DNA of 64,000 nucleotides from Trypanosoma brucei. Lineage: Eukaryota. The DNA is taken from positions 1,472,001 to 1,536,000 of the forward strand of contig CP000066.1 in the NCBI GenBank assembly GCA_000002445.1. The letters run 5' to 3'. A program made the translations under genes and the position numbers. The stretch's first letter is position 1, and every line of letters begins with the position of its first letter. Positions 6,204-29,418 of this stretch are shown here, piece by piece. The notes beneath the pieces were generated by a model, which was given only the letters and a program-made list of their open reading frames with translations, had not been told where the DNA came from and did no database searches.

Positions 6204-6204
<1 letters not shown>

Positions 6205-11596: not shown

Positions 11597-12185
11597 TTGG
11601 TGTGGGAGAGAATGATTCTAAATGACAAGGGCTGATCATGTGCACTATTGTTAGATTTTTCTGCGGTGCAGTTTCATTGATCTGGTTTCATCTTCTCTCC
11701 TCTTTTTTTTTCACCCTCTTTTTTTTTTTGTTGAACATGCGTTGCGTTATCCATGCGCTTCAGAAGAGCCGGTTGTTATTAAAATCTTATCCTTTGGTTT
11801 CCCTTAATCTTAATATTAACCTTGATATTTTTGTCTGTATTTTGTTCTATTTTCACTTTCTTGTTTGTTTATTGGAGCACGTTCCCGGACTTTACTGTTT
11901 CGAGGAACAGGCGGTAAAGGCTGTAGGGTGGAGAAATTTCTTCTCCACTGAGGGGAGAGCCTATCACGCGTGCTGAGGGATAGTGGGAAACTGGTTGATT
12001 TTCCCACAAGTTGTGGAAGTTGTTTCCATAGAGCAGTGCTGAATAAGCAGCCGTGTCCACAAAACGAGAAGGAGGCCGGTGGCTACGTGTCGCGTCTCCA
12101 ATTGAATAGAATAGAAAACCTCAGCACAAAAACTTGGAAGAGGTTGAAGGTAGAGAGGTGTCGAGAGAGGTTGTGAACCACTGTA

Positions 12186-15020
12186 ATGGGTCGGGCAACA
12201 GAGGCACAACGTGCCGAAATGGCAAAGGAGGAAAAACTACAGCGGGCGCTGCATGAAAACCGGCAACTCAAACAAGAGGTTCTGGGATTGCGCGATAAGT
12301 TGAAGATATTGCAAGTAAAGTTTAATAAGGTAACTAATGACCTGAAGCGTGTTTCACCTGACATGTTAAAACATCTTAACGAGGTTGCTTCATCCGCTGC
12401 AACATCACCGCCCCTCTCGTCAATGCGGACCGCCACAAGCGTTGGCGGTGCTTATGCTACCCGGCAATCAACACCGGGTAAAAGATCATTTTCTCTTCAG
12501 CCGCATGCGGGAACCGGTGAGGGGGCTGCTCTATCATTGGGAGAGGCGGTGGACCCTGCAGAGTTGCAACAGTGCCGTGAAGCACTTCATCGCGCCCAAT
12601 TAGAGATCGTAGCGTTACGTGCTAATACCGCCGCAACTGTGGGGGGTACAACAGCTGGTCCCTCGCCACCATCTCCGGCTATGGTCACTGTAATAGAAAA
12701 ACTTAGACAGGATCTTGCTAGCGCTGTGGTGGAGCGAGACCAACGCGCTGCTGAGGTTAGTGTACTTCGTGACGAGTTAACACGGACTCGCACCCAACTG
12801 GAAGATGTGCAATTCACTCAACAGCAGCAACTTGCTGTGGAGAGGCACACTTGTGGCATGCTTAACGGGCGTGCCCAAGCGGCCGAGAGTGGAAAACAGC
12901 AGCTGGAAGCCGAATTTCGTCGTTCCGTTGAAATTCTCACACGGGAACGGGATGAACTTGCACTTAAGCTTCGCCTGTTACAAGAGGAGATGGACAGCGA
13001 AAAACGGTACGGGGCGGGCACCGTTGATCCCACACAGCTTGTTCAAGTTCAGGCAGATTTGCAGGATAAGTCAAGGCAAATCACTATTTTGACTAGTCGT
13101 ATGCAAGGGTCGCAGCAGCAGGTGGAGACTCTTAAGAACGAATGCAGTCGCCTTTTGGATGAACTCCAGAAGTTTCACGCGATGCATACAGAAACGAAGC
13201 GGCAGCTACTGGAACTGGAAGGTGAGCGAAATTTGTTGCAAGTACGCTGTGCACGTGTCGAGGAGTTAGAACGGACCGTGAAGCACAAAAGCGAGGAACT
13301 TATTCGTACCGAGCAGGAACTTTTGCGCACAGCAAGTACCCTGCAGAGTTGCAATAGAGAAACTGAAGAGGCTGTTCGACGTGAATTCTCCTCCCGCCTG
13401 GCAGATGTTCAGGGAATGCGGGACTCTGCTGAGGCACAACGGCGTGAAAAGGAACGACAGCTCCTCGAGGCGCAACGTGAGTTGGGGGAGCTGCGTCGTC
13501 AGTTAGAACTCACTCGCGAAAACGCCACTATGTTCCAAGCGCAGTTGGAGAAATCGGAGGAGGAACGACAAAAGTTATCAGCAATGGCCTCCGTGGCGGG
13601 GTATACTGTGAAAGAGTTCGGTGATGAAAAGGTTAGACGTGCCCTGGCGGTAGTGGCCATGCGAGGTGACTCTGGTATTGACCGTAACGGTGGGACCGGA
13701 GGCGTGACAAATGGGTTTAGTGATAAGGTTCCGGTCAATGCGTCAGACGGCGCGGCGGGGGAGGCGCTTGAAATGTGGGATGCACTTCGGTGGGATGAGG
13801 GATGGGAGGCACAACAGTTGCGTGAAGCACTTGCAAGCGCCGCCCTCGACATGGAACTGGCCGAATCCCGCTGTACTCAAATGAACGAACAACTTGAACG
13901 AAATCGTCACCTAATGCAGCAGCTGTCGCATGAACGCGACGCACTGTTAGAAGAGAACATAGAGATGCGGCGGCGGCTCACGCATGTTCAAACTGCGTTT
14001 GCCAAACAGCAACTGGAGTCATACAATGCGGCGAAGACGCGTGGCACCACAAATGGAGGAAAGGGATCAAGCGATGGTATTATCAACTTTTGCATACATG
14101 ATTTGGAGTGTAACGATGCAATGCTGCGTGCTTTGGGTGCTTCCCAAGTCGCCGGTGCGGCTGTCACTCTGTTCTTCTCGCTCGATGGTCTACGGTCGTA
14201 CGATACGATGATGTCGCCCATGTTCTACTCACTTGATAGCCCTCTTGACATACGCTTCTGCTACGATCGTCTTGACCGTGATGAAGCTACTGTTGCGGAG
14301 ATACGTGCAACAACGTTCGTGTTTCAACTTCACCAGGTATGTGGCACGGGAACAAACATTGTCGCTATGGGGGAACTTCCGGGTGTTGCGCTTCTGCAGG
14401 CACGAGAATCAGCCGTTCTGGAACGCGTTAAGCTAGTAAGCGGTAGCGGGGAGGAAGTTGGGGTTGTCGCCGTTGAGATGTGTGCTCTCAACCTGTTGTT
14501 ACCTATTCTGCTGGATCGTCCACTCTCAGGCGTTGGAAAGGATGGCGACTTTTGTCTCAGCTCAGACGCAGTGCGTGCAGCACTGGTGGCCATGCGCAGT
14601 GTCGTTGCACTCCGTGTGCAAGTTTTCCGTGCTGATGGCCTGCAGAATTCACCCACACCGCAACCGTATGTTTTCTACACCGCGGCGATGCCATCTACGA
14701 CACACGGTGGGATTAGTTGTATCCGTGATACAGTTGTTCACACGTCCACGAAAGCCTTAACATCCGATCCTGTGTTTGACGAGGAACCTATCGACCATCG
14801 TGTGGTAGTGGACAGTGAGTTGATTTCATTTGTGTCTGAGAGCTCGGTGGTATTTGTTGTGTTTGACGCGCAGGCGCGAGATGTGCGTTCGAATTTGGGC
14901 GTTGCGGAGGTTCCATTAAGGCCATTACTTGCATCACCACAGGCGGTAATACGCAAGACGGAGGTGTTACATCCACAGGGAACGCTGAGCATCGGACTAT
15001 CGTGGGTGTGTAGAAGTTAA
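12186..15020 (+). CDS. coiled-coil protein with a C-terminal C2 domain and a possible second upstream C2-like region
   Basis: N-terminal ~480 aa are heptad-like, E/R/L/Q-rich coiled coil. The C-terminal ~150 aa show a classic C2 beta-sandwich pattern (LRVQVFRADGL...PYVFYT...DPVFDE...VVFVVFDAQ...GVAEVPL). Architecture resembles coiled-coil/C2 proteins such as the T. brucei FAZ protein CC2D or RPGRIP1L-type ciliary proteins. Identity not established. Confidence 0.6.
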   Translation: MGRATEAQRAEMAKEEKLQRALHENRQLKQEVLGLRDKLKILQVKFNKVTNDLKRVSPDMLKHLNEVASSAATSPPLSSMRTATSVGGAYATRQSTPGKRSFSLQPHAGTGEGAALSLGEAVDPAELQQCREALHRAQLEIVALRANTAATVGGTTAGPSPPSPAMVTVIEKLRQDLASAVVERDQRAAEVSVLRDELTRTRTQLEDVQFTQQQQLAVERHTCGMLNGRAQAAESGKQQLEAEFRRSVEILTRERDELALKLRLLQEEMDSEKRYGAGTVDPTQLVQVQADLQDKSRQITILTSRMQGSQQQVETLKNECSRLLDELQKFHAMHTETKRQLLELEGERNLLQVRCARVEELERTVKHKSEELIRTEQELLRTASTLQSCNRETEEAVRREFSSRLADVQGMRDSAEAQRREKERQLLEAQRELGELRRQLELTRENATMFQAQLEKSEEERQKLSAMASVAGYTVKEFGDEKVRRALAVVAMRGDSGIDRNGGTGGVTNGFSDKVPVNASDGAAGEALEMWDALRWDEGWEAQQLREALASAALDMELAESRCTQMNEQLERNRHLMQQLSHERDALLEENIEMRRRLTHVQTAFAKQQLESYNAAKTRGTTNGGKGSSDGIINFCIHDLECNDAMLRALGASQVAGAAVTLFFSLDGLRSYDTMMSPMFYSLDSPLDIRFCYDRLDRDEATVAEIRATTFVFQLHQVCGTGTNIVAMGELPGVALLQARESAVLERVKLVSGSGEEVGVVAVEMCALNLLLPILLDRPLSGVGKDGDFCLSSDAVRAALVAMRSVVALRVQVFRADGLQNSPTPQPYVFYTAAMPSTTHGGISCIRDTVVHTSTKALTSDPVFDEEPIDHRVVVDSELISFVSESSVVFVVFDAQARDVRSNLGVAEVPLRPLLASPQAVIRKTEVLHPQGTLSIGLSWVCRS

Positions 15021-15682
15021 ATGCGTTGAAGAAGGAGAAGCGAATTTTAAGTTTCATGAGTGTGGTTGTGCGGAAAATTCTGAAACCCCTTGCTCCAGGT
15101 GGTTTTCATTTTTCCTTCCCAACCGGTGAGGTTTTTTGTCTTTATTATTTCCGAACGCACGCTGGTATTTTCACGTGTGCGTGGAAATCCGTGCACACGC
15201 AACCATTCAATATGAGTGTTTTTATAGGGCGCCAACTCGCATTTCTGACAGGCGATCCACTTAACCACCAGTGATTACGACCAAGCGAAGTGAGTGATCT
15301 GTGTGGCTTGCACATCCGTACGGCTTTAGTGCGACAACCAATGGTGGATTTCGTTTTGTGTGTTTTCTGTCCTCCCCGCTCCTGTTTCGGTATCTTTTCC
15401 TTATCCTTTTTCATTTCTCCACACTCTTCATCCACCTGCTTTGGCGTCTTGTCCACGATAATTTTTTTTGTTGTTGTTGTGGGACGCCTTTAATCCTTCT
15501 CCACAGTAGTGCAGAGTCGGCCGCGTAGGCAAAAAGGATAGCACAGGTCCTCCCCCCTTTTTTCTTGGGCAGTACTCTTAAAAAACAACAACAACAACAA
15601 CAACTCATTTTGCGCCCCGGAAGTGAATCGCATCACATCGCGGCCTTCAAATTAGGGAACTCCAATACCCGGCGGAGGGATC

Positions 15683-16201
15683 ATGTTATTCACCCGCTGT
15701 CTGCTAGCGGTCACGACAATCAACAGTAGCACGGCATCGGCAGCCGGCCGCCTTATTCGCATCAGGAAGAAGTCAAAATGGATTGACAGGAGAAGCAAGC
15801 GGATTCCGCATAACGGAAAGGATGTGTGGCAGTTTGGCGAACAACCCAGTTGCGCGCTATGCCACGTGCGGTTCAGGTTTAAGCAAGACTACGAGGCACA
15901 TAAGGAAAGTGAACTTCATCAAAACCGTCTGCGGTGGGTGGAGACTATGAAATGGTGGGAGGAAATCGGGGAACCCCACCATCAGCAGCACGCGGCATCG
16001 GAGTGGGAATGGTTCCGGCAGCGCGTTTTACCCGCTAAAGCCGCAGCAATGGGATTGTCAGAAGAGGATGCGGCGAGGGAATTGCGGCGTGCTGTTATGC
16101 ATGAGACACCTCGTTGGTACTCCCGCATCCAGCCCCCGAATGCCCGATCGGAGATAAAGGAACCGAGGGACCAGCGTTGGCCATCATCGCCGAAATGGTA
16201 G
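15683..16201 (+). CDS. C2H2 (U1/matrin-type) zinc-finger protein, possibly organellar
   Basis: C-x2-C-x12-H-x5-H motif (CALCHVRFRFKQDYEAHKESELH). N-terminus MLFTRCLLAVTT...RLIRIRKK is basic and amphipathic, like a mitochondrial presequence (inference). Confidence 0.5.
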   Translation: MLFTRCLLAVTTINSSTASAAGRLIRIRKKSKWIDRRSKRIPHNGKDVWQFGEQPSCALCHVRFRFKQDYEAHKESELHQNRLRWVETMKWWEEIGEPHHQQHAASEWEWFRQRVLPAKAAAMGLSEEDAARELRRAVMHETPRWYSRIQPPNARSEIKEPRDQRWPSSPKW

Positions 16202-16603
16202 TGCTATTGGTAGCATTTTCGTTGTTTCATTTCGTAACCTCCTTGAGGGGTGGTGTTGTACGCTCTAACTCGAGGGTGCTGGCCAGCGCTTTTGCATACC
16301 TTCTCTTGAGTGGAGGAAACAACCTCTTCAGCACTGCTGTGCTCAACAACCGTACGATCTACTGGCAATGTTTGCTTTTCTGTTCTTTTTTTCTTTTGCA
16401 GCATTCACCAAATTCACTTACTCCTTCCTATTCAACGATTTCCCTATTGACGCCGGATTTCCCCCATTTGAAGGTCAGGTGGAAGTAGCGAAGGAACAAA
16501 AAGGAAAAATAAAGGAAGAAGAAAACAAGAAAAGACACCTCGAAGTGGCGGGACTTGTTTATTTCTTTGCCAGTTGTGCTGCCTCTACGAGTTACTGACA
16601 CAG

Positions 16604-16666
16604 CTTTCTTTTTCTAGTTTTTATTGTGTTTGTCGGCACTGTTGACGACCGAGGTGCAGCGCAGGG
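16604..16666 (+). promoter_or_regulatory. polypyrimidine tract / putative trans-splice acceptor region for the repeat-protein gene
   Basis: ctttctttttctagtttttattgtgtttgtcggcactgttgac precedes the ATG at 16667. Confidence 0.4.
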
Positions 16667-19600
16667 ATGGACGGTTATCTTCCTAACCTTACCAGGGAGA
16701 GTTTAAACATCCCTACGAGAGGGATTTCCGGTCAAAACCAATGGCGGACGGTGCGTCGTGTTTGCAACACTGCGAGCTCTCACGATGGTTATAAAAAAAT
16801 GCTTGAGGGTGTTCGAAGGCAATTCCTTGAACCAGCATATCAGGTGCCGGTATCACGACTACCTGATGTTCCGGTACCATGCCGCCCGCCGCCCTCCTCT
16901 TCCTCTCCCGGTCGTTTCTCGCGGAACCTTCAGTACACTGTGAAGGATCGAAAAATTGTGAAGAAGGAGGAGGAAGATATATGCAGCCCCTCACTGGAAG
17001 CACTGGAGGAAAATGGACGGCAGCACATCATTGTGAATGAAGTTTGGGAGCGGCAGGTTTTGAAGCAGATGATGATTGTCCGTTATGTTACATTTGTGCT
17101 CCGGGATGAGATACGCGACTTGGAGCTTGTTGAACGAGAGCAGCGTGGCACCATCGCCTTTGAGGAGGAGAAGGAGCGCTATTGGTTGCAACATGAATCT
17201 GATGCGAGCGTTCAACTCCGTGAATACAAGTTGGCACTTTCAGCTAAGAGGGAAAAGCAGAAGAGACTACAAGAGAACGAGGCGTTGTATCGTGCTCGAT
17301 CGTCAAGTTCTCCGTTTCCCATGAATGAATTCAAGATGGAACCTGATGCCCAGAAAATCCTTCAGGAGTATCTAAAGATGAAACATCTTGCAGACGACGG
17401 TGAAGGCCAGCCTCAAGAATGCCCCCATCCCCCACTCCGGAGGTCGCCGCAGCAGCAGCGATCAGCTGAGCGCTACAGGCGATTGATAGGTAAAGTTTCC
17501 AGTCACAATAACCCACCAGTGGTTCGTGTGCAACCACTCAGTAACGTATGCAATACCTTGGGTATTGCAGCTTATATGGGTCTTCTGGAGAAAGACTCGG
17601 AGAGCCGTAAAATGATTGAGGAGCGTGAGGAGGAGGAGTACAAACGCATCATGGAGCATTTTGAGGAGCAGTCCTCTCTACTGCTGACGTGGAAGCACAA
17701 ACGCCTGCACTTGGAGCGGCTTATTTATTGGAAAGCTCAGAGTGAGGAGCGCCGGCAAAAGGAGCAACTCAGGATTGAAATGGAGGTGCTGAGGCCTCGA
17801 AAGCAGATGGCAATGCCGCACGAGGAGTTGGCGGCGCAGGAGGAAGAATTCCGTAATATGCTCGGAGCTGAAGAAGGCACGCGGCGTGGGGATTTGTTGC
17901 AGCTGCACAACGAATACTTCATGCGCACAAAGGCAAAGGCATTAGGCAATGAGGAAATGAATCTGCGGGCCCATATTCTTCAAGAAGATATTGGGGTCCG
18001 AAAGCTTCTCGTCCAGGGCCTGGAAATTATATTGCGGCAGGGTATTTGCAAGGAATGGGAGCAGAATGTTGTGATGCTTGTGCCTGAGCAGATTCAGGCG
18101 CTGGCGAAACTAAATCGAGAATGGATTGAGCACGAGAAGCAGATTCTAACGATCCAGAGGGCAGTACGTAGCTTTCGCGCCGGTCGACTCGGGTGGCGTA
18201 TCACCCATTCTGAAATCGGTCGCATTATACAAAAGAAGCGCGATATCGCAAAGATTGATCGCGGCAAAAAGTCACTTTGCGAGTACAAGAATTATCTTGC
18301 CTCGGAGTTCGCCGCCGTCGAAGAGGAAGTACGCACACTTCATGCTAATGAACGTAATAAATTGTTTGATGTAGAGTACAACAGCCGAACGATCGTGTAT
18401 ACTGAGGAGGAATGGAATCGGGGCGTGCTGCGGCGTACCGAGCGACAGGATCTATACGACAGCGTGATAGTTCCACTTGTAACAAACTGTTTCTCCGCTG
18501 AGTTAGACGCCCGCCGTGAAATTGATGTTGAAGAGGAATTCGTTCGCGGAAGGATGTGCAATTTTTTCAACCGCCTCAGTAACATCATCCGGACAAAGAC
18601 GTACGTTCTGGGGCGTGAGGTGGAAGGACGTGCCGCCATCGAAAAGGATGAAAACAATTTTTTTTTTTCAATCCTCTGCATGGAGCTAGACGACCGCGAT
18701 TTGGTTCGCATAATGATGAAAGAAATCCAAGCACAAAAGGAAGAAGAGCTGTTCGCGCAGGCGTTGGTTCTGCTTGAGTCGCGGAAAGAGGAGGAGATGT
18801 ACATGTACGCACGCCTTACTAGACTTCATTATGAATTCAAACGTGAAAAACTGGAGATTGAAGCTTTGGACCCAAATCCTCGGGCATTAATTGCTCACAC
18901 TTTTTTGAACACTGCACTCTGTTTTTTCTGTGACGAATCGGTTAAGTTTCTTGAAAACTATGGGTCGCTTCTGGTAGAGCAACATTCTGAAATTGTATAT
19001 TTGTGCTGCGTTGCGATTACGGAGGAAAGGGAGGAGGAAGCTCGCCACCTCCTTGAGCGGTTGGAGAGTCGTGCATGGCCCGAAATAACTGATTGTGCTC
19101 ACCGGGAAATGAGTTCAAAACTTAGAAAGGAACTCCGAAATATAGGAGCCGCTAGCCGAATAAAAATTTTCTATAGGAAATACCGGAATGGTGATGTAGG
19201 AAGGTCAGGCATGCGGAAGCACCTTCGCGAAGCCTTTCGCGTAATGCGAGAGAAGGCAGAGCTGAAGGAGGTTTTTGACAGGCAGCGCATTGACGTTCAG
19301 GAGTGCAGGCACAACCTCCGTGATGCGGTCGCGATACAATCCTACTACACATACAGACGTATTGCTCTTGAGCTTAGTGTAGTCGAGAATAGAGCAGAAC
19401 CCCGCGGTCGCTCAGAGTTGGAGGGTCAGGAAGAGATGATGTTCAAAATGATTTTAAACTACTTTGAACCCCCTGCTGTCCCCATGGTAGATGCAGTAAC
19501 AATATTGTTGCACAGTGAGTCGCATGGTCGTATACGAATCAAAAAAGAGTGGCAGAAGGCTATTGAAAACGATTTTACAAGAAGAAAAGAGTGGTTTGAG

Positions 19601-22600
19601 AAGGATGTGTTGGCGATCATAACGCTGAGGAAGTGGCAAAAGTTTGCTGCAGTGAAGCGCAAGAGGACTTTCATAAAGGCCGAGCTAGAAAAGCTGGTTC
19701 TATCTGAACTTACACAGCGTCATGAATTAGAGTTAAACGAGACGAATGAGCGATTTATCGATATCGTTAAACCCATGGAGTACACCACACATCACCAAGC
19801 GTATCTGGATCAAGATGTGCCGCGTTTCTTAAACGAGATGTGCTTCGATATTGGTTTCCACCTTGGAATAAAAGAGGAAGAGTGGCAAAACCGCATGCTT
19901 TTGCTATGGAGGATGCGTAACAGTTACCACGAGAAAGAGCTGGAAACTGAAGAATTTGCTACCCGCGCCGCCCTACAACAGAGCAGTTTCTACGACGGTG
20001 TTGACTTAATTGAGGTTGTTTGCGACGAAAGTATCTTGCGAGCAGCACTCTGTGATGAGCGTAGATACTTCTTGATGCGAATACTGGCAAGGTTGGAAAG
20101 AGCTTCACGTGGGGATATTATCCACAGCTACGACATCCACTCGCTATGGATGCACGAATATACATGCAGAAAGGAACTCTACGTTGAATACATATATTCT
20201 CTCCACCATATTGCCCCGGAAAAGAACACAATACAACATACAAAGTGTTTGCTCATCGATGCTGAAATATCACACACCACAGAAGCAGAAGAAAGCTACG
20301 AAAAGTCTACAAATCACCAACCGCTCAACGACAATGCAGAGGACAATAATATAACATCCTCAGCAAATATAGTTGATCAAACAAACGCCACCCCTCAGGG
20401 ACCAATAGTTGACCAACCTGCAGAAGATCTCACCAAGGCTGAGGAGCTTGATGAACCTGTTGCTGATACTGAAGTAGCTGAGAAGGAGCCTACTGATTCT
20501 GAGGTGATCCCTGAAAAGGAAATTCCAGACACTGAAGCTGCGGCTGAGCAACCTGCAGAAGATCTCACCAAGGCTGAGGAGCTTGATGAACCTGTTGCTG
20601 ACACTGAAGTAGCTGAGAAGGAACCTACTGATTCTGAGGTGATCCTTGAAAAGCAAATTCCAGACACTGAAGCTGCGGCTGAGCAACCTGCAGAAGATCT
20701 CACCAAGGCTGAGGAGCTTGATGAACCTGTTGCTGACACTGAAGTAGCTGAGAAGGAGCCTACTGATTCTGAGGTGATCCCTGAAAAGGAAATTCCAGAC
20801 ACTGAAGCTGCGGCTGAGCAACCTGCAGAAGATCTCACCAAGGCTGAGGAGCTTGATGAACCTGTTGCTGACACTGAAGTAGCTGAGAAGGAACCTACTG
20901 ATTCTGAGGTGATCCCTGAAAAGCAAATTCCAGACACTGAAGCTGCGGCTGAGCAACCTGCAGAAGATCTCACCAAGGCTGAGGAGCTTGATGAACCTGT
21001 TGCTGACACTGAAGTAGCTGAGAAGGAACCTACTGATTCTGAGGTGATCCCTGAAAAGGAAATTCCAGACACTGAAGCTGCGGCTGAGCAACCTGCAGAA
21101 GATCTCACCAAGGCTGGGGAGCTTGATGAACCTGTTGCTGACACTGAAGTAGCTGAGAAGGAACCTACTGATTCTGAGGTGATCCCTGAAAAGGAAATTC
21201 CAGACACTGAAGCTGCGGCTGAGCAACCTGCAGAAGATCTCACCAAGGCTGAGGAGCTTGATGAACCTGTTGCTGACACTGAAGTAGCTGAGAAGGAGCC
21301 TACTGATTCTGAGGTGATCCTTGAAAAGGAAATTCCAGACGCTGAAGCTGCGGCTGAACAACCTGCAGAAGATCTCACCAAGGCTGAGGAGCTTGATGAA
21401 CCTGTTGCTGACACTGAAGTAGCTGAGAAGGAACCTACTGATTCTGAGGTGATCCTTGAAAAGGAAATTCCAGACACTGAAGCTGCGGCTGAGCAACCTG
21501 CAGAAGATCTCACCAAGGCTGAGGAGCTTGATGAACCTGCTGCTGACACTGAAGTAGCTGAGAAGGAACCTACTGATTCTGAGGTGATCCCTGAAAAGCA
21601 AATTCCAGACACTGAAGCTGCGGCTGAGCAACCTGCAGAAGATCTCACCAAGGCTGAGGAGCTTGATGAACCTGTTGCTGACACTGAAGTAGCTGAGAAG
21701 GAGCCTACTGATTCTGAGGTGATCCCTGAAAAGGAAATTCCAGACACTGAAGCTGCGGCTGAGCAACCTGCAGAAGATCTCACCAAGGCTGAGGAGCTTG
21801 ATGAACCTGTTGCTGACACTGAAGTAGCTGGGAAGGAACCTACTGATTCTGAGGTGATCCCTGAAAAGGAAATTCCAGACACTGAAGCTGCGGCTGAACA
21901 ACCTGCAGAAGATCTCACCAAGGCTGAGGAGCTTGATGAACCTGTTGCTGACACTGAAGTAGCTGAGAAGGAACCTACTGATTCTGAGGTGATCCCTGAA
22001 AAGGAAATTCCAGACACTGAAGCTGCGGCTGAACAACCTGCAGAAGATCTCACCAAGGCTGAGGAGCTTGATGAACCTGTTGCTGACACTGAAGTAGCTG
22101 AGAAGGAGCCTACTGATTCTGAGGTGATCCCTGAAAAGCAAATTCCAGACACTGAAGCTGCGGCTGAGCAACCTGCAGAAGATCTCACCAAGGCTGAGGA
22201 GCTTGATGAACCTGTTGCTGACACTGAAGTAGCTGAGAAGGAGCCTACTGATTCTGAGGTGATCCCTGAAAAGGAAATTCCAGACACTGAAGCTGCGGCT
22301 GAACAACCTGCAGAAGATCTCACCAAGGCTGAGGAGCTTGATGAACCTGCTGCTGACACTGAAGTAGCTGGGAAGGAACCTACTGATTCTGAGGTGATCC
22401 CTGAAAAGGAAATTCCAGACACTGAAGCTGCGGCTGAACAACCTGCAGAAGATCTCACCAAGGCTGAGGAGCTTGATGAACCTGTTGCTGACACTGAAGT
22501 AGCTGAGAAGGAACCTACTGATTCTGAGGTGATCCCTGAAAAGGAAATTCCAGACACTGAAGCTGCGGCTGAGCAACCTGCAGAAGATCTCACCAAGGCT

Positions 22601-23053
22601 GAGGAGCTTGATGAACCTGTTGCTGACACTGAAGTAGCTGAGAAGGAGCCTACTGATTCTGAGGTGATCCTTGAAAAGGAAATTCCAGACACTGAAGCTG
22701 CGGCTGAACAACCTGCAGAAGATCTCACCAAGGCTGAGGAGCTTGATGAACCTGTTGCTGACACTGAAGTAGCTGAGAAGGAGCCTACTGATTCTGAGGT
22801 GATCCCTGAAAAGCAAATTCCAGACACTGAAGCTGCGGCTGAACAACCTGCAGAAGATCTCACCAAGGCTGAGGAGCTTGATGAACCTGTTGCTGACACT
22901 GAAGTAGCTGAGAAGGAACCTACTGATTCTGAGGTGATCCCTGAAAAGCAAATTCCAGACACTGAAGCTGCGGCTGAGCAACCTGCAGAAGATCTCACCA
23001 AGGCTGAGGAGCTTGATGAACCTGCTGCTGATGCTGAAGTAGCTGAAATGTAG
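16667..23053 (+). CDS. giant repetitive protein (2128 aa): ~1240-aa unique charged/coiled-coil N-terminal region followed by ~19.5 tandem 45-aa strongly acidic repeats
   Basis: Single uninterrupted ORF. The N-terminal part is E/R/K-rich with heptad character and an IQ-like stretch (IQRAVRSFRAGRLGWRI). The C-terminal part is an array of AEQPAEDLTKAEELDEPVADTEVAEKEPTDSEVIPEKEIPDTEAA repeats. PolyY 16604-16635 upstream. Confidence 0.8.
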   Translation: MDGYLPNLTRESLNIPTRGISGQNQWRTVRRVCNTASSHDGYKKMLEGVRRQFLEPAYQVPVSRLPDVPVPCRPPPSSSSPGRFSRNLQYTVKDRKIVKKEEEDICSPSLEALEENGRQHIIVNEVWERQVLKQMMIVRYVTFVLRDEIRDLELVEREQRGTIAFEEEKERYWLQHESDASVQLREYKLALSAKREKQKRLQENEALYRARSSSSPFPMNEFKMEPDAQKILQEYLKMKHLADDGEGQPQECPHPPLRRSPQQQRSAERYRRLIGKVSSHNNPPVVRVQPLSNVCNTLGIAAYMGLLEKDSESRKMIEEREEEEYKRIMEHFEEQSSLLLTWKHKRLHLERLIYWKAQSEERRQKEQLRIEMEVLRPRKQMAMPHEELAAQEEEFRNMLGAEEGTRRGDLLQLHNEYFMRTKAKALGNEEMNLRAHILQEDIGVRKLLVQGLEIILRQGICKEWEQNVVMLVPEQIQALAKLNREWIEHEKQILTIQRAVRSFRAGRLGWRITHSEIGRIIQKKRDIAKIDRGKKSLCEYKNYLASEFAAVEEEVRTLHANERNKLFDVEYNSRTIVYTEEEWNRGVLRRTERQDLYDSVIVPLVTNCFSAELDARREIDVEEEFVRGRMCNFFNRLSNIIRTKTYVLGREVEGRAAIEKDENNFFFSILCMELDDRDLVRIMMKEIQAQKEEELFAQALVLLESRKEEEMYMYARLTRLHYEFKREKLEIEALDPNPRALIAHTFLNTALCFFCDESVKFLENYGSLLVEQHSEIVYLCCVAITEEREEEARHLLERLESRAWPEITDCAHREMSSKLRKELRNIGAASRIKIFYRKYRNGDVGRSGMRKHLREAFRVMREKAELKEVFDRQRIDVQECRHNLRDAVAIQSYYTYRRIALELSVVENRAEPRGRSELEGQEEMMFKMILNYFEPPAVPMVDAVTILLHSESHGRIRIKKEWQKAIENDFTRRKEWFEKDVLAIITLRKWQKFAAVKRKRTFIKAELEKLVLSELTQRHELELNETNERFIDIVKPMEYTTHHQAYLDQDVPRFLNEMCFDIGFHLGIKEEEWQNRMLLLWRMRNSYHEKELETEEFATRAALQQSSFYDGVDLIEVVCDESILRAALCDERRYFLMRILARLERASRGDIIHSYDIHSLWMHEYTCRKELYVEYIYSLHHIAPEKNTIQHTKCLLIDAEISHTTEAEESYEKSTNHQPLNDNAEDNNITSSANIVDQTNATPQGPIVDQPAEDLTKAEELDEPVADTEVAEKEPTDSEVIPEKEIPDTEAAAEQPAEDLTKAEELDEPVADTEVAEKEPTDSEVILEKQIPDTEAAAEQPAEDLTKAEELDEPVADTEVAEKEPTDSEVIPEKEIPDTEAAAEQPAEDLTKAEELDEPVADTEVAEKEPTDSEVIPEKQIPDTEAAAEQPAEDLTKAEELDEPVADTEVAEKEPTDSEVIPEKEIPDTEAAAEQPAEDLTKAGELDEPVADTEVAEKEPTDSEVIPEKEIPDTEAAAEQPAEDLTKAEELDEPVADTEVAEKEPTDSEVILEKEIPDAEAAAEQPAEDLTKAEELDEPVADTEVAEKEPTDSEVILEKEIPDTEAAAEQPAEDLTKAEELDEPAADTEVAEKEPTDSEVIPEKQIPDTEAAAEQPAEDLTKAEELDEPVADTEVAEKEPTDSEVIPEKEIPDTEAAAEQPAEDLTKAEELDEPVADTEVAGKEPTDSEVIPEKEIPDTEAAAEQPAEDLTKAEELDEPVADTEVAEKEPTDSEVIPEKEIPDTEAAAEQPAEDLTKAEELDEPVADTEVAEKEPTDSEVIPEKQIPDTEAAAEQPAEDLTKAEELDEPVADTEVAEKEPTDSEVIPEKEIPDTEAAAEQPAEDLTKAEELDEPAADTEVAGKEPTDSEVIPEKEIPDTEAAAEQPAEDLTKAEELDEPVADTEVAEKEPTDSEVIPEKEIPDTEAAAEQPAEDLTKAEELDEPVADTEVAEKEPTDSEVILEKEIPDTEAAAEQPAEDLTKAEELDEPVADTEVAEKEPTDSEVIPEKQIPDTEAAAEQPAEDLTKAEELDEPVADTEVAEKEPTDSEVIPEKQIPDTEAAAEQPAEDLTKAEELDEPAADAEVAEM
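20408..23050 (+). repeat. 135-bp tandem repeat array, ~19.5 copies, near-identical units with a few recurrent point variants
   Basis: Period measured directly: the same 18-mer recurs at 20417 and 20552 (offset 135). Variants recur at fixed positions: GAG/GGG, GTT/GCT, CCT/CTT, GAA/CAA, and synonymous GAG/GAA. Confidence 0.95.
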
Positions 23054-24009
23054 TTGATTATCTTTAAAATTTTGATTGTTGGTAATATTTGTGACGTTGC
23101 TTGTCTTTTATTTTGATTTTTTTGCAAAATTTCTTATTGTTTTTTGTAGAAATTTGAATAATTTTGTATTTTGAATTCTGTTGTCCAGGTTTGTAAACCT
23201 TTTTTTAAAAGTTTTTACTTTCTGCTGTTATGTCTTTCTGGTTATATATGTATTTTGTATTCCCTTTACTTTGGTTATCTTTTGGTTGAAAGGGTAGAGG
23301 GTGGAGATATGTAAATATATGCGTGTGTGTGTGAATAGAATTTTTGTAGGTTTTTGTGGTCGAATTTGTTTCTTGATGAGTTTTTTTTTGTTAAAAAAGT
23401 GTTTCTGTAATGATATCATGTTTTTTTGTGTCTTTACTGAGGTGCTGTGAGAGTGTTGTGCTTTATGGTATTTAGGTTTTTTTGTGGTTGTGTGAATTGT
23501 GTGAATGTTTGTCTTTTCAGTTGGTCGGCGAATTGAGTTTCTAGTGGGTTTGTTCTCCACATTCTATGTAAATTATTTTCGGTGTTTCTTTCCAATCGGA
23601 AAATTATTCTTGTTTAATGTTTTATGTACTGCTTTGACTGTTAAATTTTTTTTGCAATGATTGCTCAATTTTTTGTCCTCCATTTTCTCCCCGATTAACA
23701 TTAGATTTACTTTGAGGAGATATTAGTTTGTGCGCACTAATTTGGTTGGTAGTAGGCACATTTGTAGAGGGAAGGGATAAAGGGCTATTATTTTTTTTTG
23801 TTTTTTTGACAGGATCTCCGCGTGTGTGAGGGGACCAACCTAAAGTTGTAAGAGAGCAGTGAGTTAAGCAACCGAGAGGGAGATTAGGGACGCTATCACT
23901 AACCAGGATAGCCATATATATTATTAGTGTGATTTTGAAGGCTACGTTACCCCAGATACAACAAGCTGTGAGAAAGGAGGAAAGTTCTGCAAAGGGAGAA
24001 GTATATATA

Positions 24010-24088
24010 CCCCTTCCTTCGTCCTTTACTATTTTCTTGTTTGTTTTTATACGCCTCTGAAGGTGAGGGCTAGGGACGTTGTGCTCCA
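24010..24088 (+). promoter_or_regulatory. polypyrimidine tract / putative trans-splice acceptor region for the UBX gene
   Basis: ccccttccttcgtcctttactattttcttgtttgtttttatacgcctctgaag, then AG before the ATG at 24089. Confidence 0.4.
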
Positions 24089-25300
24089 ATGGATGAAGAT
24101 GTGGTGCAAATCTTTATGGCAATGTGTGATTGCAGTGAAACTGTGGCAATAAGCCTCTTATCAGAGGCTAACTTTGATGTGGATTATGCCTACCATCTCC
24201 ATATGTCGCGTACCCAAGGGGCTGATGAAAGTGTTACTTCACTTCACGGCACTTCCCCACAAGGAGAAGCACCTCATTTACAGGAACCTGAATTACCGCA
24301 TGCCTCTTACGTAGTGAACCGGCTTGATGGTGGTGGTGGCTACGTGGGTGGTAATTACCCTCACGAACGGGATTTTTTGCTTGATGAAGTGGAAAGTGAG
24401 CAGGATCTACTGGATTCAGTGTTCCCTATACCAGCTTTTGTCCACCGCAGTCCCGAACCCTTTGATACTTTTTGCACTGATTCCTTAAATAGAGACCAGT
24501 GGGTTATTTTGAGTTTTGTTTTGAATGATTTTACGGGGTTTTGTGTCAACAGAGACATTTGGCGGTCGGAAGATTTATTAGAGGTTCTTAGTATGTTTTC
24601 AATATATCAAACCACCGCCGATGTAGGTGAGGGACCCGGGCTTGCGCACGGCTATCGCCTCGACGTGGAAAAAGATATTCCAACTCTCCTTATAATCAAT
24701 CCAATAACACGTGTAAAGGAGACGCGAATACCTATAAATGTCCATGAAGCGACCATTGAGAGTTATGAGGTTAAAAATGCTCTTCTCACCTTTGTTGGTG
24801 AGAAGGGCTCGCCAAATCAGTGGGAGGAATGCAGGCTGCGAGGAACATATGAAAACGCATCCCCCGTTTTGCATACAGAAAATTCGAGAGAGTACGTGGA
24901 TGTTGAAGAAACGAGCATTCCATTTTCTGAACCAGAGGCAGGACGCCGTGATGAGGCAAATGAAGGGGTTGTAGCACAACCACCACAAATATTGGCTGTT
25001 GATATCAGTCCCTACGAAGTCCCTGCAGAAGTGGGAAGTGCCTTTACTTTGCGCTGCCGCTTGCCCAAGGAACAGTTAACGTTGCGCCTTAAACCTGAGA
25101 TGCCCGTTCTACTTTTATTGAAATATCTTTCCACCCGGTTGTACTTTAGCCAGTCAACCGCCTTTCCCGGAGGTGTCCCAAATTGCTCACTAAGGGTTGG
25201 TTTCCCTCCGAAAGATCTTATTGTGGAAGACGGTGAGGTTCAGCTTGGAACTTGTCCGGGGTTAAGATCAGGAGATACAGTGGTTCTTCACATCCATTGA
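24089..25300 (+). CDS. UBX-domain protein with N-terminal UBA-like and central UAS/thioredoxin-like regions (UBXD7/FAF1-like architecture)
   Basis: N-terminal helical UBA-like segment (VVQIFMAMCDCSETVAISLLSEANFDVDYAYHL). C-terminal beta-grasp UBX-like segment (LTLRLKPEMPVLL...RVGFPPKDLIVEDGEVQLGTCPGLRSGDTVVLHI) with an FP[PR]-loop. PolyY 24010-24055 upstream. Confidence 0.6.
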   Translation: MDEDVVQIFMAMCDCSETVAISLLSEANFDVDYAYHLHMSRTQGADESVTSLHGTSPQGEAPHLQEPELPHASYVVNRLDGGGGYVGGNYPHERDFLLDEVESEQDLLDSVFPIPAFVHRSPEPFDTFCTDSLNRDQWVILSFVLNDFTGFCVNRDIWRSEDLLEVLSMFSIYQTTADVGEGPGLAHGYRLDVEKDIPTLLIINPITRVKETRIPINVHEATIESYEVKNALLTFVGEKGSPNQWEECRLRGTYENASPVLHTENSREYVDVEETSIPFSEPEAGRRDEANEGVVAQPPQILAVDISPYEVPAEVGSAFTLRCRLPKEQLTLRLKPEMPVLLLLKYLSTRLYFSQSTAFPGGVPNCSLRVGFPPKDLIVEDGEVQLGTCPGLRSGDTVVLHIH

Positions 25301-25680
25301 TGTTAGCTGGAAGATGGCAATGCTAGTGTTAGCGATAGGCAACACAATTTTTGAGGTTAACCATCATTATTATTTCTATGTGGTAGCTGTTGCAAACGCT
25401 TATGTTTTTGTTTGAGAGGGGGGGGAGGCCCAACTCTCATTCATTTGAGCAACCTTCTTCTCTGTGCGTGGGTATTTTGCATCTGGAAGGTCGTGAGAAT
25501 TTTTTTCCGCTCACGTTCACGGGTGGTTTCACATCGTGGCCAACACCCCTCCCCTCCCTCCCCTACGCGCGCTCACTGACTGTAATGTTATCATCTTTCC
25601 GTCGATCACTGTTATCATTATTATTTTGTACATCTTACCCTCTCTGCCGTATCGAGCGGCGTTTAATTACTAAACCCATT

Positions 25681-25745
25681 CTCCTTCGCCCCTTCCCCAC
25701 CCTTATACCTTTTTTTTTTGTGAATCCCATGCAAATTGTGCTCCC
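25681..25745 (+). promoter_or_regulatory. polypyrimidine tract / putative trans-splice acceptor region for the ArfGAP gene
   Basis: ctccttcgccccttccccacccttatacctttttttttttgtg upstream of the ATG at 25803. Confidence 0.4.
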
Positions 25746-25802
25746 TGAATTGAAGGGATATTTACTCAAGGTTGTGGACAAAATTGCTCCCTCCAACTTG
25801 TA

Positions 25803-26630
25803 ATGACGGAAAAGGAAAATGGAAACAAAGATAAGAGGCGGAAGGAGAAGCATCGCAAACATCATCGTGACCGCCGCGAAAGTTGTAATGGTGTTGTTAA
25901 CTCATCTGCAGCCAAAACTAGGCCCGAAACTGCTGTGGCAATAGAGGGTGCGGATGAGGAAGTGGAGAACTGGGATGAAAACCGTACACGGGTTGATCAA
26001 CTCTGTCAAACCTACCCGAACAACATGTGCAACGACTGCAACAACGCTGGAACTCGCTGGGCCTCGGTTAATCACGGCGTGTTTTTATGCATTCGGTGCT
26101 CCGGCATCCATCGCTCACTGGGCGTCCACGTGTCGAAGGTGAAGTCAGCTAACATGGACAAGTGGAGTGCAGCAGAGGTTCATTTGATGGAACTCATAGG
26201 CAATCAACGGGCAAAGTTACTTTACGAGGCGCATCTTCCTAAAGATATGAAGCCCATGACGTTTGCAGAGTCTGATGCTACTCTACAAACTTTTATCCAG
26301 CGGAAGTATCAGGAAAAAGCATTTTCTGTGGAGGCCGTAGATGAGAAACTTCGCCAGTACCATAAAGAAGCGCGGTACGGGAAGAAACCGAAGCGGAATA
26401 GCAGCGCGAGTCGTAAAAAAAAAGCGAATGACGGAGCGAACGACAAAGCCGAGAGGAGTTTGAAGGGGGAGGACACAATCAAGGCGTTATATGGCTCCAA
26501 TGCGGAGGTTATATCTAAAATGTCAAAGAGGACGGGACCCATTCGTGGGACTTTTGGAGTAGTGAATGTTGGACCGGAAGCGTACGATGAGCGGCGCAAG
26601 ACACTTCTGGAGCAGTTTGGCTTTTCTTGA
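25803..26630 (+). CDS. ADP-ribosylation factor GTPase-activating protein (ArfGAP)
   Basis: Canonical ArfGAP C4 zinc finger with arginine finger: CNDCNNAGTRWASVNHGVFLCIRCSGIHRSLGVHVSKVKS...W. Basic K/R-rich N-terminus. Confidence 0.85.
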   Translation: MTEKENGNKDKRRKEKHRKHHRDRRESCNGVVNSSAAKTRPETAVAIEGADEEVENWDENRTRVDQLCQTYPNNMCNDCNNAGTRWASVNHGVFLCIRCSGIHRSLGVHVSKVKSANMDKWSAAEVHLMELIGNQRAKLLYEAHLPKDMKPMTFAESDATLQTFIQRKYQEKAFSVEAVDEKLRQYHKEARYGKKPKRNSSASRKKKANDGANDKAERSLKGEDTIKALYGSNAEVISKMSKRTGPIRGTFGVVNVGPEAYDERRKTLLEQFGFS

Positions 26631-27135
26631 GCGCTTTTTTTTCTCTTTTGGACGAAAACACCCATTCCCTGCACTGTAAGTATGTGGTGGTGAAGAAGTT
26701 AGGGAGTACGTAACTGTTGAGGCGCAACTCCTGCTCAGATATGAAAGCCCATGGTGATGATGATGTCGACCATCGAGAAGTGTGAGTTGACAGTGGCGCA
26801 ATCGCCTTTATGTTTTCTCTGTCTTGCAATGTTAACATGGGCGGTTGAAATTTTTCTCTCTTAGTTCACCGTTCAGTGTAAAATTACCATCTAGTTGTCT
26901 ATGTGCATGCACTTGACCCTATTGTACCTATTGCTGTTTTCCTTATGATAAACAAAAAATCATTTCCCTCTTTCTCCTAAAAAAAAATAATAATAATCCA
27001 GCGACAACGTCAAACAAAGAAAATATAGCAAAAAATTGCTTTGGTGATACACGCGAGAGGGTAATTGTGTTATTACGTTTTCGAACTTGCCTGCTGTAGG
27101 GGGCAGCGTTTCACTGTGATTTTTCTTTCCTTCCA

Positions 27136-29132: not shown

Positions 29133-29416
29133 TCTAAGTGCAGTCCCGCAACTGTCATCTCGTTGTTGTTTTTTGTTTTTTCTTGTTCTCTCTCTAGTTT
29201 TCTTTGTGAGATTTGCTGTGCTATTCGCAAGTAAGGAGATAGGAGAATGAATATATTAGAAATGAGGTTTGTGCAAGAGATTGATGGGAGGTAAGCGATT
29301 TTCGGTGCTTTCTGCACATTGGTTGTGTGCTTTGGTGCCGTCGTTTCGTGTGTTTGAGGGCAACCAAACATACGGCGAAGAGATACGCCATTTAATTTAA
29401 GAATAGAAATACTGGA

Positions 29417-29418
<2 letters not shown>

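What the first reader, a model, noticed from the sequence alone, without database searches (positions are those of the whole stretch)
16667..23053. Giant protein with ~19.5 near-identical 45-aa hyper-acidic tandem repeats fused to a ~1240-aa coiled-coil/IQ-like N-terminal domain
Seen in sequence: one 2128-aa ORF whose last ~880 aa are 135-bp units encoding AEQPAEDLTKAEELDEPVADTEVAEKEPTDSEVIPEKEIPDTEAA. Each unit carries ~17 acidic and 3 basic residues, so the array has a net charge of roughly -270, a PEVK/E-rich, intrinsically disordered, polyanionic segment. Established knowledge: trypanosomatid proteins with long, highly homogenised tandem repeats (CRA/FRA, SAPA, GM6, MARPs, others) are frequently cytoskeleton- or flagellum-associated and are immunodominant B-cell antigens. 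The 45-aa period does not match the repeat families I know (38-aa MARP/MAP, 68-aa GM6/FRA, 12-aa CRAM), so the family assignment is open. The N-terminal domain (coiled coil, IQ-like IQRAVRSFRAGRLGWRI) suggests a structural or cytoskeletal anchoring role with a long acidic tail that could bind cations or basic partners. This is the most unusual gene in the window.
Basis: partly seen in the sequence, partly recalled or inferred. Interest (0 to 1): 0.6.

Follow-up and report, generated by a model that had tools for sequence, protein, structure and literature searches.

The report
Known trypanosome flagellar rod antigen I2/PFC25
This giant repeat-bearing gene is real, but it is the already described Trypanosoma brucei paraflagellar-rod protein and cattle-serum antigen I2 (Tb927.3.5310, PFC25), so the finding is a correct rediscovery, not something new.

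Summary
There is one 2128-aa ORF (16667..23053, + strand) whose last 880 aa are 19.5 copies of a 135-bp/45-aa unit. Each unit has 17 acidic and 3 basic residues, and the array's net charge is -266.

The protein is 100% identical to XP_844121/Q580U4 of T. brucei TREU927 chromosome 3. Two independent chains of accession numbers tie it to Tb927.3.5310. That gene is the repetitive antigen I2 (Imboden et al. 1995: found with infected-cattle serum; immunogold labels the whole paraflagellar rod). A 2024 TrypTag-based preprint names it PFC25. RIT-seq shows about a 10-fold loss of representation on knock-down.

The statement that the family is open was wrong.

Details I added:
- An independent long-read assembly carries 44.5 copies, so the copy number here is strain-specific or collapsed.
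- Orthologues in T. rangeli, T. conorhini and T. theileri carry arrays of different periods; T. cruzi, T. grayi and T. vivax carry none.
- The conserved core is about 87% helical but has no heptad periodicity.
- The core contains 17 conserved copies of an unannotated E-x3-R-x2-[ILV] motif and three IQ-like motifs (weak Pfam support).

Novelty: already known. Interest: low.

The parts
16667..23053 (+). Complete coding sequence of Tb927.3.5310 (antigen I2 / PFC25 / 'paraflagellar rod protein'), 2128 aa, stop TAG at 23051-23053
   Evidence: ORF list. 2128/2128 identical to XP_844121.1 / Q580U4 of T. brucei TREU927 on a 1,653,225-bp contig. Linked to the locus tag through T. cruzi orthologues XP_811482.1 and PWU98970.1.
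16985..20188 (+). Conserved helical core (aa 107-1174), shared by the 26 relatives found, all those that could be named being kinetoplastids
   Evidence: Alignments A1-A4. Exhaustive profile search found 26 relatives in 1.84 billion proteins. AlphaFold2 with 25 sequences: about 87% helix, helices up to 223 residues, mean pLDDT 58.3, pTM 0.24. No Pfam domain above threshold and no relative in the PDB.
17006..20189 (+). Region holding 17 family-conserved copies of the internal motif [LVI]-x3-E-x3-R-x2-[LIV]-x2-E-E-x3-[FWL]-x2-[LIV]. The anchor E residues are at aa 114, 125, 156, 392, 453, 570, 612, 651, 789, 911, 951, 1014, 1072, 1096, 1121, 1144 and 1164.
   Evidence: Invariant E/R pairs spaced i,i+4 in the 24-sequence alignment. 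E-x3-R-x2-[ILVM] occurs 25 times against 4.0 expected, reached by 0 of 2000 shuffles, and z is 6-13.6 in all 24 members. Anchors and logo. 13 other ORFs of the window have z<=2.4.
18143..18229 (+). IQ-like motif 1, ILTIQRAVRSFRAGRLGWRITHSEIGRII (aa 493-521). Q497 and G509 are invariant; R511, H514 and G518 are nearly invariant across the family.
   Evidence: The Pfam IQ model hits 10/24 family members only weakly.
19151..19234 (+). IQ-like motif 2, ASRIKIFYRKYRNGDVGRSGMRKHLREA (aa 829-856). G845 and L853 are invariant. Some relatives have a true IQ here (for example P0031 ITIQRFFRNYQLGKVGRSG).
19610..19669 (+). IQ-like motif 3, LAIITLRKWQKFAAVKRKRT (aa 982-1001). The family consensus is QRxWRxxxAR; T. 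brucei has L in place of the Q.
20189..20410 (+). Poorly conserved linker (aa 1175-1248) between the core and the array
   Evidence: Alignment A1, columns 1190-1300.
20410..23046 (+). Tandem array of 19.5 x 135 bp encoding the 45-aa acidic unit EQPAEDLTKAEELDEPVADTEVAEKEPTDSEVIPEKEIPDTEAAA (aa 1249-2128, net charge -266)
   Evidence: The same unit occurs in 44.5 copies in T. b. equiperdum locus L001 11302..17276.

Best explanation
The gene is Tb927.3.5310 of Trypanosoma brucei chromosome 3. It encodes the high-molecular-weight repetitive antigen I2, also called PFC25 and annotated 'paraflagellar rod protein'. It is a structural component of the paraflagellar rod (PFR), the lattice that runs alongside the axoneme.

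Shown: the identity of the gene; its PFR localisation (published immunogold and tagging); a fitness cost on RNAi (published RIT-seq); conservation of the 1070-aa helical core in the relatives found, the named ones running from Trypanosoma to Leishmania (my searches) and, in the preprint's tables, to Bodo; restriction of the 45-aa array to the T. brucei group among the genomes seen; and variation of its length between assemblies.

Inferred mechanism: the long, almost entirely helical core is built from at least 17 copies of an E-x3-R helical motif and integrates the protein into the PFR lattice across all its domains, as PFR1 does. Its two or three IQ-like motifs may dock calmodulin, which is also found throughout the PFR. 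The C-terminal array is a proline- and glutamate-rich, probably disordered polyanionic tail that projects from the lattice. It grows and shrinks by unequal recombination and is homogenised by gene conversion. Because the epitope is repeated many times in an abundant cytoskeletal protein released from lysed parasites, it is a dominant antibody target in infected cattle. A specific biochemical role for the tail (cation or Ca2+ buffering, entropic spacer) is possible but unproven.
For: Identity: 2128/2128 identical to XP_844121.1/Q580U4 'Paraflagellar rod protein', T. brucei TREU927, on a contig of 1,653,225 bp.

Locus tag, chain 1: the review PMC2813431 tabulates TbI2 = Tb927.3.5310 with T. cruzi orthologue XP_811482, and XP_811482.1 lies in the 90% cluster of my T. 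cruzi hit P0004.

Locus tag, chain 2: the supplement of bioRxiv 10.1101/2024.04.19.590284 lists Tb927.3.5310 'Paraflagellar rod protein' with reciprocal best T. cruzi hit PWU98970.1 at 39.17% identity. PWU98970.1 is P0004, which is 39% identical to the window protein.

Localisation: anti-I2 immunogold labels the whole PFR. [quoted passage not shown]

Fitness: RIT-seq representation is 0.10 at day 3 and 0.08 at day 6 in bloodstream forms.

Conservation: 26 relatives in the exhaustive search, with conserved synteny in T. b. equiperdum, T. theileri, T. rangeli and T. conorhini.

Helical core and motif. IQ-like motifs.

Tail: composition. Array length is 19.5 versus 44.5 copies. Arrays of other periods occur in orthologues, and there is no array in T. 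cruzi, T. grayi or T. vivax.
Against: I could not read Imboden et al. 1995, so I have not compared the original I2 cDNA sequence with this unit; the assignment I2 = Tb927.3.5310 rests on the review's table. The preprint's sub-domain assignment comes from light microscopy. The structural models have low confidence (mean pLDDT 43.8 and 58.3), so 'elongated helical rod' rests on secondary structure only. The T. brucei protein itself does not reach any Pfam IQ score, and no calmodulin-binding data exist for it. RIT-seq for a gene with an internal repeat may be noisy. I found nothing that tests a function for the tail.
Confidence: 0.9

Rival explanations
1. The array as it stands in this window is an assembly artefact: a collapsed, expanded or chimeric copy number. 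On this view the true gene differs in length, while the gene and its repeat are real.
For: The independent long-read assembly of T. b. equiperdum has 44.5 copies (5,975 bp) between colinear flanks, against 19.5 here. The orthologous arrays broke or gapped three other assemblies. The T. equiperdum model P0001 ends in out-of-frame sequence where the array begins.
Against: The window array is perfectly in frame with no indels. Its units carry an irregular pattern of 9 variable sites, which speaks against a simple collapse to identical units. The comparison is with another subspecies or strain, where real copy-number differences are expected. The long-read array is itself error-ridden, with unit lengths of 133-136 bp.
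Confidence: 0.35
2. The acidic array has a specific physiological role in the PFR, such as low-affinity Ca2+/Mg2+ buffering next to calmodulin and the other PFR signalling enzymes, or acting as an entropic spring or spacer like the PEVK/poly-E region of titin. On this view it is not merely tolerated, antigenic sequence.
For: Net charge is -266 over 880 aa, with 11% proline and 49% P+E+V+K. Most Trypanosoma orthologues keep a clearly acidic tail after the core (net about -13 to -40 where delimited, -3 in the truncated T. conorhini model), and three further lineages evolved their own arrays there. The protein sits in the same compartment as calmodulin. No array in frame has a stop.
Against: Leishmania orthologues end right after the core with no acidic tail. 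T. cruzi, T. grayi and T. vivax manage with 118-227 aa and no repeats. The unit sequences are not conserved between lineages: the T. brucei unit against the other tails scores z = -0.7 to 0.9 versus shuffles. Length varies more than 2-fold between close relatives. All of this suggests weak constraint on sequence and length.
Confidence: 0.25
3. The protein is a canonical two-stranded heptad coiled-coil filament protein with a bona fide IQ/calmodulin-binding neck: myosin-neck-like or PFR1/PFR2-like.
For: Almost all-helical prediction with very long helices. IQ-like strings are conserved. Pfam IQ hits 10/24 family members.
Against: There is no heptad periodicity of hydrophobic residues in any of six members tested (lag-7 z from -0.5 to 0.7). 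Only a weak lag-11 signal appears in four of them, and none in T. brucei. The Pfam IQ matches are all weak (best E 0.0022) and absent for the T. brucei protein. The canonical G at IQ position 7 and the basic residue at position 11 are not kept.
Confidence: 0.15

Closest known systems
T. brucei antigen I2 (Imboden et al. 1995) = Tb927.3.5310 = PFC25
   Same: It is the same gene: 100% identity to the TREU927 reference protein. It is a high-molecular-weight repeat protein (242.8 kDa calculated, against '>180 kDa' for the serum fraction used in the original screen) and a PFR component.
   Different: Nothing differs at the level of the gene. Not found in the sources I could read: the E-x3-R internal motif, the three IQ-like motifs, the 19.5 versus 44.5 copy difference, and the lineage-specific arrays of orthologues.
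Other repetitive PFR antigens of T. brucei: Tb5.20/ROD1 (Tb927.11.15100) and I17 (Tb10.26.0960)
   Same: They are high-molecular-weight, internally repetitive PFR-associated proteins found by antibody screening of expression libraries.
   Different: They are different genes on other chromosomes. ROD1 is an outer-domain marker and I17 labels the PFR-axoneme linker region, whereas I2/PFC25 spans the whole PFR. According to the review, I17 has no Leishmania orthologue and I2 does.
Trypanosomatid cytoskeletal tandem-repeat antigens (MARP 38-aa, GM6 68-aa, T. cruzi FRA/CRA)
   Same: The general architecture and immunology are shared: long, homogenised tandem repeats in a cytoskeletal or flagellar protein that are recognised by infection sera (established knowledge; MARP and GM6 are used as diagnostic antigens in PMC12921242).
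   Different: The unit length (45 aa) and sequence are unrelated. My database search with the unit was uninformative because it missed even the protein itself, so I did not formally test sequence relatedness to those families.
Titin PEVK / poly-E segment (functional analogy only)
   Same: A proline-, glutamate-, valine- and lysine-rich, probably disordered repeat region attached to a structural filament protein; P+E+V+K is 49% of the array.
   Different: There is no sequence relationship. The array is far more acidic, with no PPAK-type 28-aa modules. Elasticity and Ca2+ binding are untested here.

Membership tests
Tb927.3.5310 / antigen I2 / PFC25 orthologue group | Sequence identity to the reference T. 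brucei protein | tested here: met
   2128/2128 identical to XP_844121.1/Q580U4; cluster membership.
Tb927.3.5310 / antigen I2 / PFC25 orthologue group | The accession corresponds to locus tag Tb927.3.5310 | tested here: met
   The chromosome-3-sized contig, plus two independent published orthologue tables whose T. cruzi entries (XP_811482, PWU98970.1) are both in the cluster of my T. cruzi hit P0004.
Tb927.3.5310 / antigen I2 / PFC25 orthologue group | The repeat unit equals that of the original I2 cDNA clone | not testable with these tools
   Imboden et al. 1995 is not held in the library, and I had no access to the GenBank entry.
Paraflagellar rod component | Experimental localisation to the PFR | not testable with these tools
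   Taken from the literature: immunogold over the whole PFR, and mNeonGreen tagging with lateral position relative to PF16 and ROD1.
IQ calmodulin-binding motif proteins (Pfam PF00612) | Match to the IQ profile above the curated threshold | tested here: not met
   No IQ hit for the T. brucei protein at E<=0.1 or E<=1. 10/24 relatives hit only weakly (best E 0.0022).
IQ calmodulin-binding motif proteins (Pfam PF00612) | Core consensus [ILV]Q-x3-R-G-x3-[RK] | tested here: inconclusive
   Motif 1 keeps I, Q and R6 but has S/R at position 7 and G at position 11. Motif 3 has lost the Q in T. brucei. The stretches are nevertheless among the most conserved of the family.
Canonical heptad coiled-coil proteins | Heptad (3.5-residue) periodicity of hydrophobic residues | tested here: not met
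   Lag-7 autocorrelation z from -0.5 to 0.7 in six members; only 3 of 93 windows reached the power cut-off, and their best periods (3.1, 3.4, 4.2) do not agree. I did not run a dedicated predictor such as COILS or MARCOIL.
MARP / GM6 / FRA-CRA repeat antigen families | Unit length and sequence of the repeat | tested here: inconclusive
   The 45-aa period differs from 38 and 68 aa. The sequence search with the unit returned nothing, not even the source protein, so it is not a valid negative.

The most novel reading that the evidence does not exclude
The 'featureless' core of I2/PFC25 may be a previously undescribed helical repeat protein: 17 or more copies of the module [LVI]-x3-E-x3-R-x2-[LIV]-x2-EE, conserved across kinetoplastids. 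Together with three IQ-like motifs it would act as the scaffold that positions calmodulin throughout the PFR lattice. The acidic C-terminal tail, expanded independently into arrays in several Trypanosoma lineages, would be a selected cation-buffering or spacer element and not neutral antigenic sequence.
Probability: 0.15. Interest if true: 0.45.

Novelty: already known. Interest (0 to 1): 0.15.

Why it matters
As a discovery it does not matter much. The gene was cloned in 1995 precisely because its repeats are immunodominant, it is annotated in the reference genome, and a genome-wide tagging project has localised it.

The exercise has three practical by-products:
- The copy number of the array in the reference (19.5) should not be trusted, or at least not generalised, since a long-read assembly of a close relative has 44.5. 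This matters for anyone using the unit as a diagnostic antigen or estimating the protein's size.
- The orthologous arrays break or gap current assemblies of T. rangeli, T. conorhini, T. theileri and T. equiperdum, so those gene models are truncated.
- The conserved core, listed without any domain in the published PFR tables, has a clear internal repeat and conserved IQ-like motifs. These give testable handles on how this fitness-relevant PFR protein is built into the lattice and whether it docks calmodulin.

Tried and rejected
1. My first guess was antigen I17, because the first homology search found only Trypanosoma hits and the review says I17 is absent from Leishmania. I rejected it: the contig size points to chromosome 3, and the T. 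cruzi orthologue accession matches I2, not I17. One literature search on a locus tag guessed from memory (Tb927.10.10140) was wasted; that tag is PFC19.

2. Homology between the T. brucei 45-aa unit and the C-terminal tails of the other species looked plausible by eye (shared AAEQP, ending in EM). Local alignment scores are no better than composition-matched shuffles (z = -0.7 to 0.9), so I do not claim it.

3. The protein database search with three repeat units returned nothing, not even the source protein. It is not usable as evidence of absence.

4. Structure prediction of the core with 5 sequences (pLDDT 43.8) and then 25 sequences (pLDDT 58.3) never reached a confidence at which a fold search would mean anything, so I ran no fold search.

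5. PDB profile search: no relative. Pfam: only sub-threshold DUF7007 and weak IQ matches.

6. Heptad or hendecad periodicity as support for 'coiled coil': no heptad signal and only weak lag-11 in some relatives.

7. The two long antisense ORFs inside the array (873 and 910 aa) were considered and dismissed as by-products of a stop-free 135-nt unit.

8. I could not obtain Imboden 1995 or Goto 2011.

Full report
**Observation.** The window contains one ORF, 16667..23053 on the + strand, of 2128 aa. Tandem Repeats Finder reports one outstanding array at 20410..23046: period 135 bp, 19.5 copies, 97% matches, no indels, score 5022. Only 9 of the 135 columns vary among the 19 full units. The variant types are 3 synonymous and 7 non-synonymous, giving 11 distinct 45-aa variants among 20 units. 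The repeat region starts at aa 1249 and is exactly 880 aa. Each unit has 17 acidic and 3 basic residues. The array has net charge -266 and pI 4.05, and is 25.6% Glu, 11.3% Asp and 10.6% Pro. The whole protein is calculated at 242.8 kDa with pI 4.43. Two long ORFs on the opposite strand inside the array (873 and 910 aa) are the expected by-product of repeating a 135-nt unit that has no stop in those frames.

**Identity.** A search with the N-terminal 1247 aa found only six clusters, all from Trypanosoma. The best (99% identity) is named 'paraflagellar rod protein' in T. equiperdum. That cluster contains a 2128-aa member, XP_844121.1 / AAZ10562.1 / UniProt Q580U4, 'Paraflagellar rod protein' of T. 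brucei brucei TREU927. It lies on a 1,653,225-bp contig, which I take to be chromosome 3. The window ORF is identical to it at all 2128 positions, so the window is T. brucei TREU927 chromosome 3.

Two independent published tables connect this protein to locus tag Tb927.3.5310:
- The PFR review by Portman and Gull (PMC2813431) lists 'TbI2 = Tb927.3.5310' with T. cruzi orthologue XP_811482 and L. major orthologue LmjF29.0350. XP_811482.1 is a member of the 90% cluster of my T. cruzi hit P0004.
- The supplement of bioRxiv 10.1101/2024.04.19.590284 lists Tb927.3.5310 'Paraflagellar rod protein', with reciprocal best T. cruzi hit PWU98970.1 at 39.17% identity. PWU98970.1 is the accession of P0004 itself, which is 39% identical to the window protein.

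**What is already known about the gene.**
[quoted passage not shown] An antibody against I2 labelled the whole PFR by immunogold EM (Imboden et al. 1995, cited).
- The 2024 preprint names the gene PFC25 and includes it in a 151-protein PFR proteome derived from the TrypTag project.
- The preprint places the start of its signal 2.0 +/- 0.17 um from the kinetoplast, in the inner/middle cohort with PFR1, PFR2 and calmodulin. [quoted passage not shown] That agrees with the 1995 immunogold result.
- Its orthologue table extends to Leishmania, Leptomonas, Phytomonas, Paratrypanosoma and Bodo saltans. It has no entry for Strigomonas, Angomonas, Perkinsela, Euglena or Naegleria, and no domain is listed for the protein.
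- In the RIT-seq data reproduced in PMC3332058, representation of Tb927.3.5310 fell to 0.10 at day 3 and 0.08 at day 6 of RNAi in bloodstream forms. The mRNA is at 72.6 rpkm, about 3-4 copies per cell by that paper's conversion.

The finding is a correct rediscovery.

**Is the array an artefact?** The same locus in an independent assembly of T. b. equiperdum (GCA_003543875.1, contig CM010674.1, 2.27 Mb; locus L001) has the same gene order and colinear flanks:
- gene start to array: 3742 bp, against 3743 bp here;
- array end to the next gene: 1036 bp, against 1043 bp here.

Its array, however, is 5,975 bp, or 44.5 copies. That array is full of single-base length errors (units of 133, 134 and 136 bp), which explains why the gene is annotated there as two fragments, P0008 and P0007. 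So the repeat is real, but 19.5 is either specific to TREU927 or an under-assembled number. With 44.5 copies the protein would be roughly 120 kDa larger (my estimate from the array mass).

**Evolution of the tail.** An exhaustive profile search of 1.84 billion representative proteins with the conserved core found only 26 relatives. The ones that carry names are T. theileri, T. vivax and the Leishmania enriettii group; the rest are unnamed contigs. Synteny (RRM protein, C2-C2_1 protein, small protein, this gene, UBA protein, ArfGAP, TPR/STI1 protein) is kept in T. b. equiperdum, T. theileri, T. rangeli and T. conorhini.

After the core, the Trypanosoma orthologues continue into an acidic tail (net -13 to -40 over 118-227 aa in the four models where I could delimit it, and -3 in the truncated T. 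conorhini model). The Leishmania proteins stop shortly after the core. Repeat content differs by lineage:
- T. rangeli and T. conorhini carry at least 2.7 copies of a 114-bp unit, and in both the contig ends inside the array.
- T. theileri carries a 45-bp acidic unit (EEPEEPAHEDKEEE...) on both sides of a run of N.
- T. cruzi, T. grayi and T. vivax have no repeats in the tail.

The T. brucei unit is not detectably related to the other tails (z = -0.7 to 0.9 against shuffles). My reading is that an acidic tail is ancestral to the genus, and that it has been amplified independently, with different units, in several lineages. The tail is constrained in composition but hardly in sequence or length.

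**The N-terminal domain.** No Pfam family reaches threshold and no solved structure is related. AlphaFold2 models have low confidence (mean pLDDT 43.8 with 5 sequences, 58.3 with 25; pTM 0.19 and 0.24). They agree on about 87% helix in very long helices, one of 223 residues, with no compact fold. Because of the low confidence I ran no fold search.

The autocorrelation of hydrophobic residues at lag 7 is at background in all six members tested. Only a weak lag-11 signal (z = 2.4-3.5) appears in four of them, and not in T. brucei.

Two further IQ-like stretches, at aa 829-856 and 982-1001, are also conserved. However, the Pfam IQ model matches only 10 of 24 members weakly (best E 0.0022) and not the T. 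brucei protein. Calmodulin binding is a reasonable hypothesis, since calmodulin is a PFR component with the same distribution. It is not established.

**An unannotated internal repeat.** In the 24-sequence alignment, most of the invariant and nearly invariant columns come as E/R pairs four residues apart. The pattern E-x3-R-x2-[ILVM] occurs 25 times in the T. brucei N-terminal region against 4.0 expected, and none of 2000 shuffles reaches it. It is enriched in every one of the 24 members (z = 6.0-13.6). It is not enriched in 13 other ORFs of the window, including the E/R-rich helical neighbour (z <= 2.4).

Seventeen copies are conserved in position across the family. Their profile is [LVI]-x3-E-x3-R-x2-[LIV]-x2-E-E-x3-[FWL]-x2-[LIV], and several copies come in pairs 11 residues apart. 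A profile built from them finds 3-13 copies per family member and none in shuffled sequences or seven other window proteins; that test is partly circular because the profile was trained on the family. I found no mention of this motif in the papers I could read, and the published PFR tables list no domain for the gene. I could not search other PFR proteins for it.

**Mechanism.**
- Shown: this is an abundant, fitness-relevant structural protein of the PFR, found across all PFR domains.
- Inferred: the elongated helical core, made of the E-x3-R modules, is the part built into the lattice and may carry calmodulin on its IQ-like motifs. The C-terminal array is a disordered polyanionic appendage whose length drifts by unequal recombination while gene conversion keeps the units alike. 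Its multivalency explains why it was picked out by infection serum.
- Open: whether the tail also buffers cations or acts as a spacer. The persistence of acidic tails and the recurrent arrays argue for some selection. The lack of a tail in Leishmania, the absence of sequence conservation and the two-fold length variation argue against a precise role.

**Verdict.** Novelty: already known. Interest is low. The minor new points are the copy-number discrepancy, the lineage-specific arrays that break other assemblies, and the internal E-x3-R repeat of the core.

Noticed in passing
window 17006..20189 (aa 114-1174 of the ORF): The supposedly unique N-terminal domain contains 17 family-conserved copies of a helical motif [LVI]-x3-E-x3-R-x2-[LIV]-x2-EE. 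E-x3-R-x2-[ILVM] occurs 25 times against 4 expected, z is 6-13.6 in all 24 relatives, and 13 other window ORFs are not enriched. It is not annotated in the sources I read.
   Followed up: partly
L001 11302..17276 (T. b. equiperdum GCA_003543875.1 CM010674.1): The same array has 44.5 copies, against 19.5 in the window. Its units carry many +/-1-nt length errors, so the gene is annotated there as two fragments (RHW73445.1 of 769 aa and RHW73826.1 of 635 aa).
   Followed up: yes
L003 9753..10066, L004 9749..10065, L002 9980..10947: Orthologues in T. rangeli and T. conorhini have 114-bp (38-aa) repeats on which the contigs end. T. theileri has 45-bp (15-aa) acidic repeats interrupted by a run of N. 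All three gene models are therefore truncated.
   Followed up: partly
window 20360..22981 and 20395..23127, minus strand: Two long antisense ORFs (873 and 910 aa) lie entirely within the array. They are repeat-periodic, low-complexity translations, most simply by-products of a 135-nt unit without stops in those frames.
   Followed up: partly
window 12186..15020 (+): The upstream neighbour is a 944-aa protein with a significant Pfam C2-C2_1 match (first C2 domain of RPGR-interacting protein 1, E = 1.5e-08, above threshold) and a weak Cep57 match. It is possibly a ciliary-base or transition-zone protein. It is syntenic with I2/PFC25 in four other trypanosome assemblies examined (T. b. equiperdum, T. 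theileri, T. rangeli, T. conorhini).
   Followed up: no
P0043 (T. vivax Y486 CCC47298.1), aa ~650-980: The T. vivax Y486 model contains a near-exact internal duplication with a period of 165 aa in the core. The newer T. vivax model P0021 stops at that point (815 aa). This is probably an assembly or annotation artefact, not biology.
   Followed up: no
P0024 (3412 aa, unnamed contig): One relative is a fused gene model. After the I2-like part it continues into two copies of a UBA/UBX-like protein resembling the downstream neighbour of the window gene (24089..25300). This looks like read-through annotation across syntenic genes.
   Followed up: no
P0022, P0025, P0030, P0028 (unnamed kinetoplastid contigs): Several long relatives carry, after the core, up to three copies of a module of about 110 aa containing the string G-[LV]-x-Y-x-PS-[SD]-FAP. 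This module is absent from the Trypanosoma proteins and is a different C-terminal elaboration of the same family.
   Followed up: no
window 1..64000: All ORFs of 200 aa or more outside the repeat array lie on the + strand, except one 205-aa ORF (41219..41836) that lies inside a longer + strand ORF. This is as expected for one trypanosome polycistronic transcription unit. Intergenic regions hold many short TA/AT/TG microsatellites.
   Followed up: no
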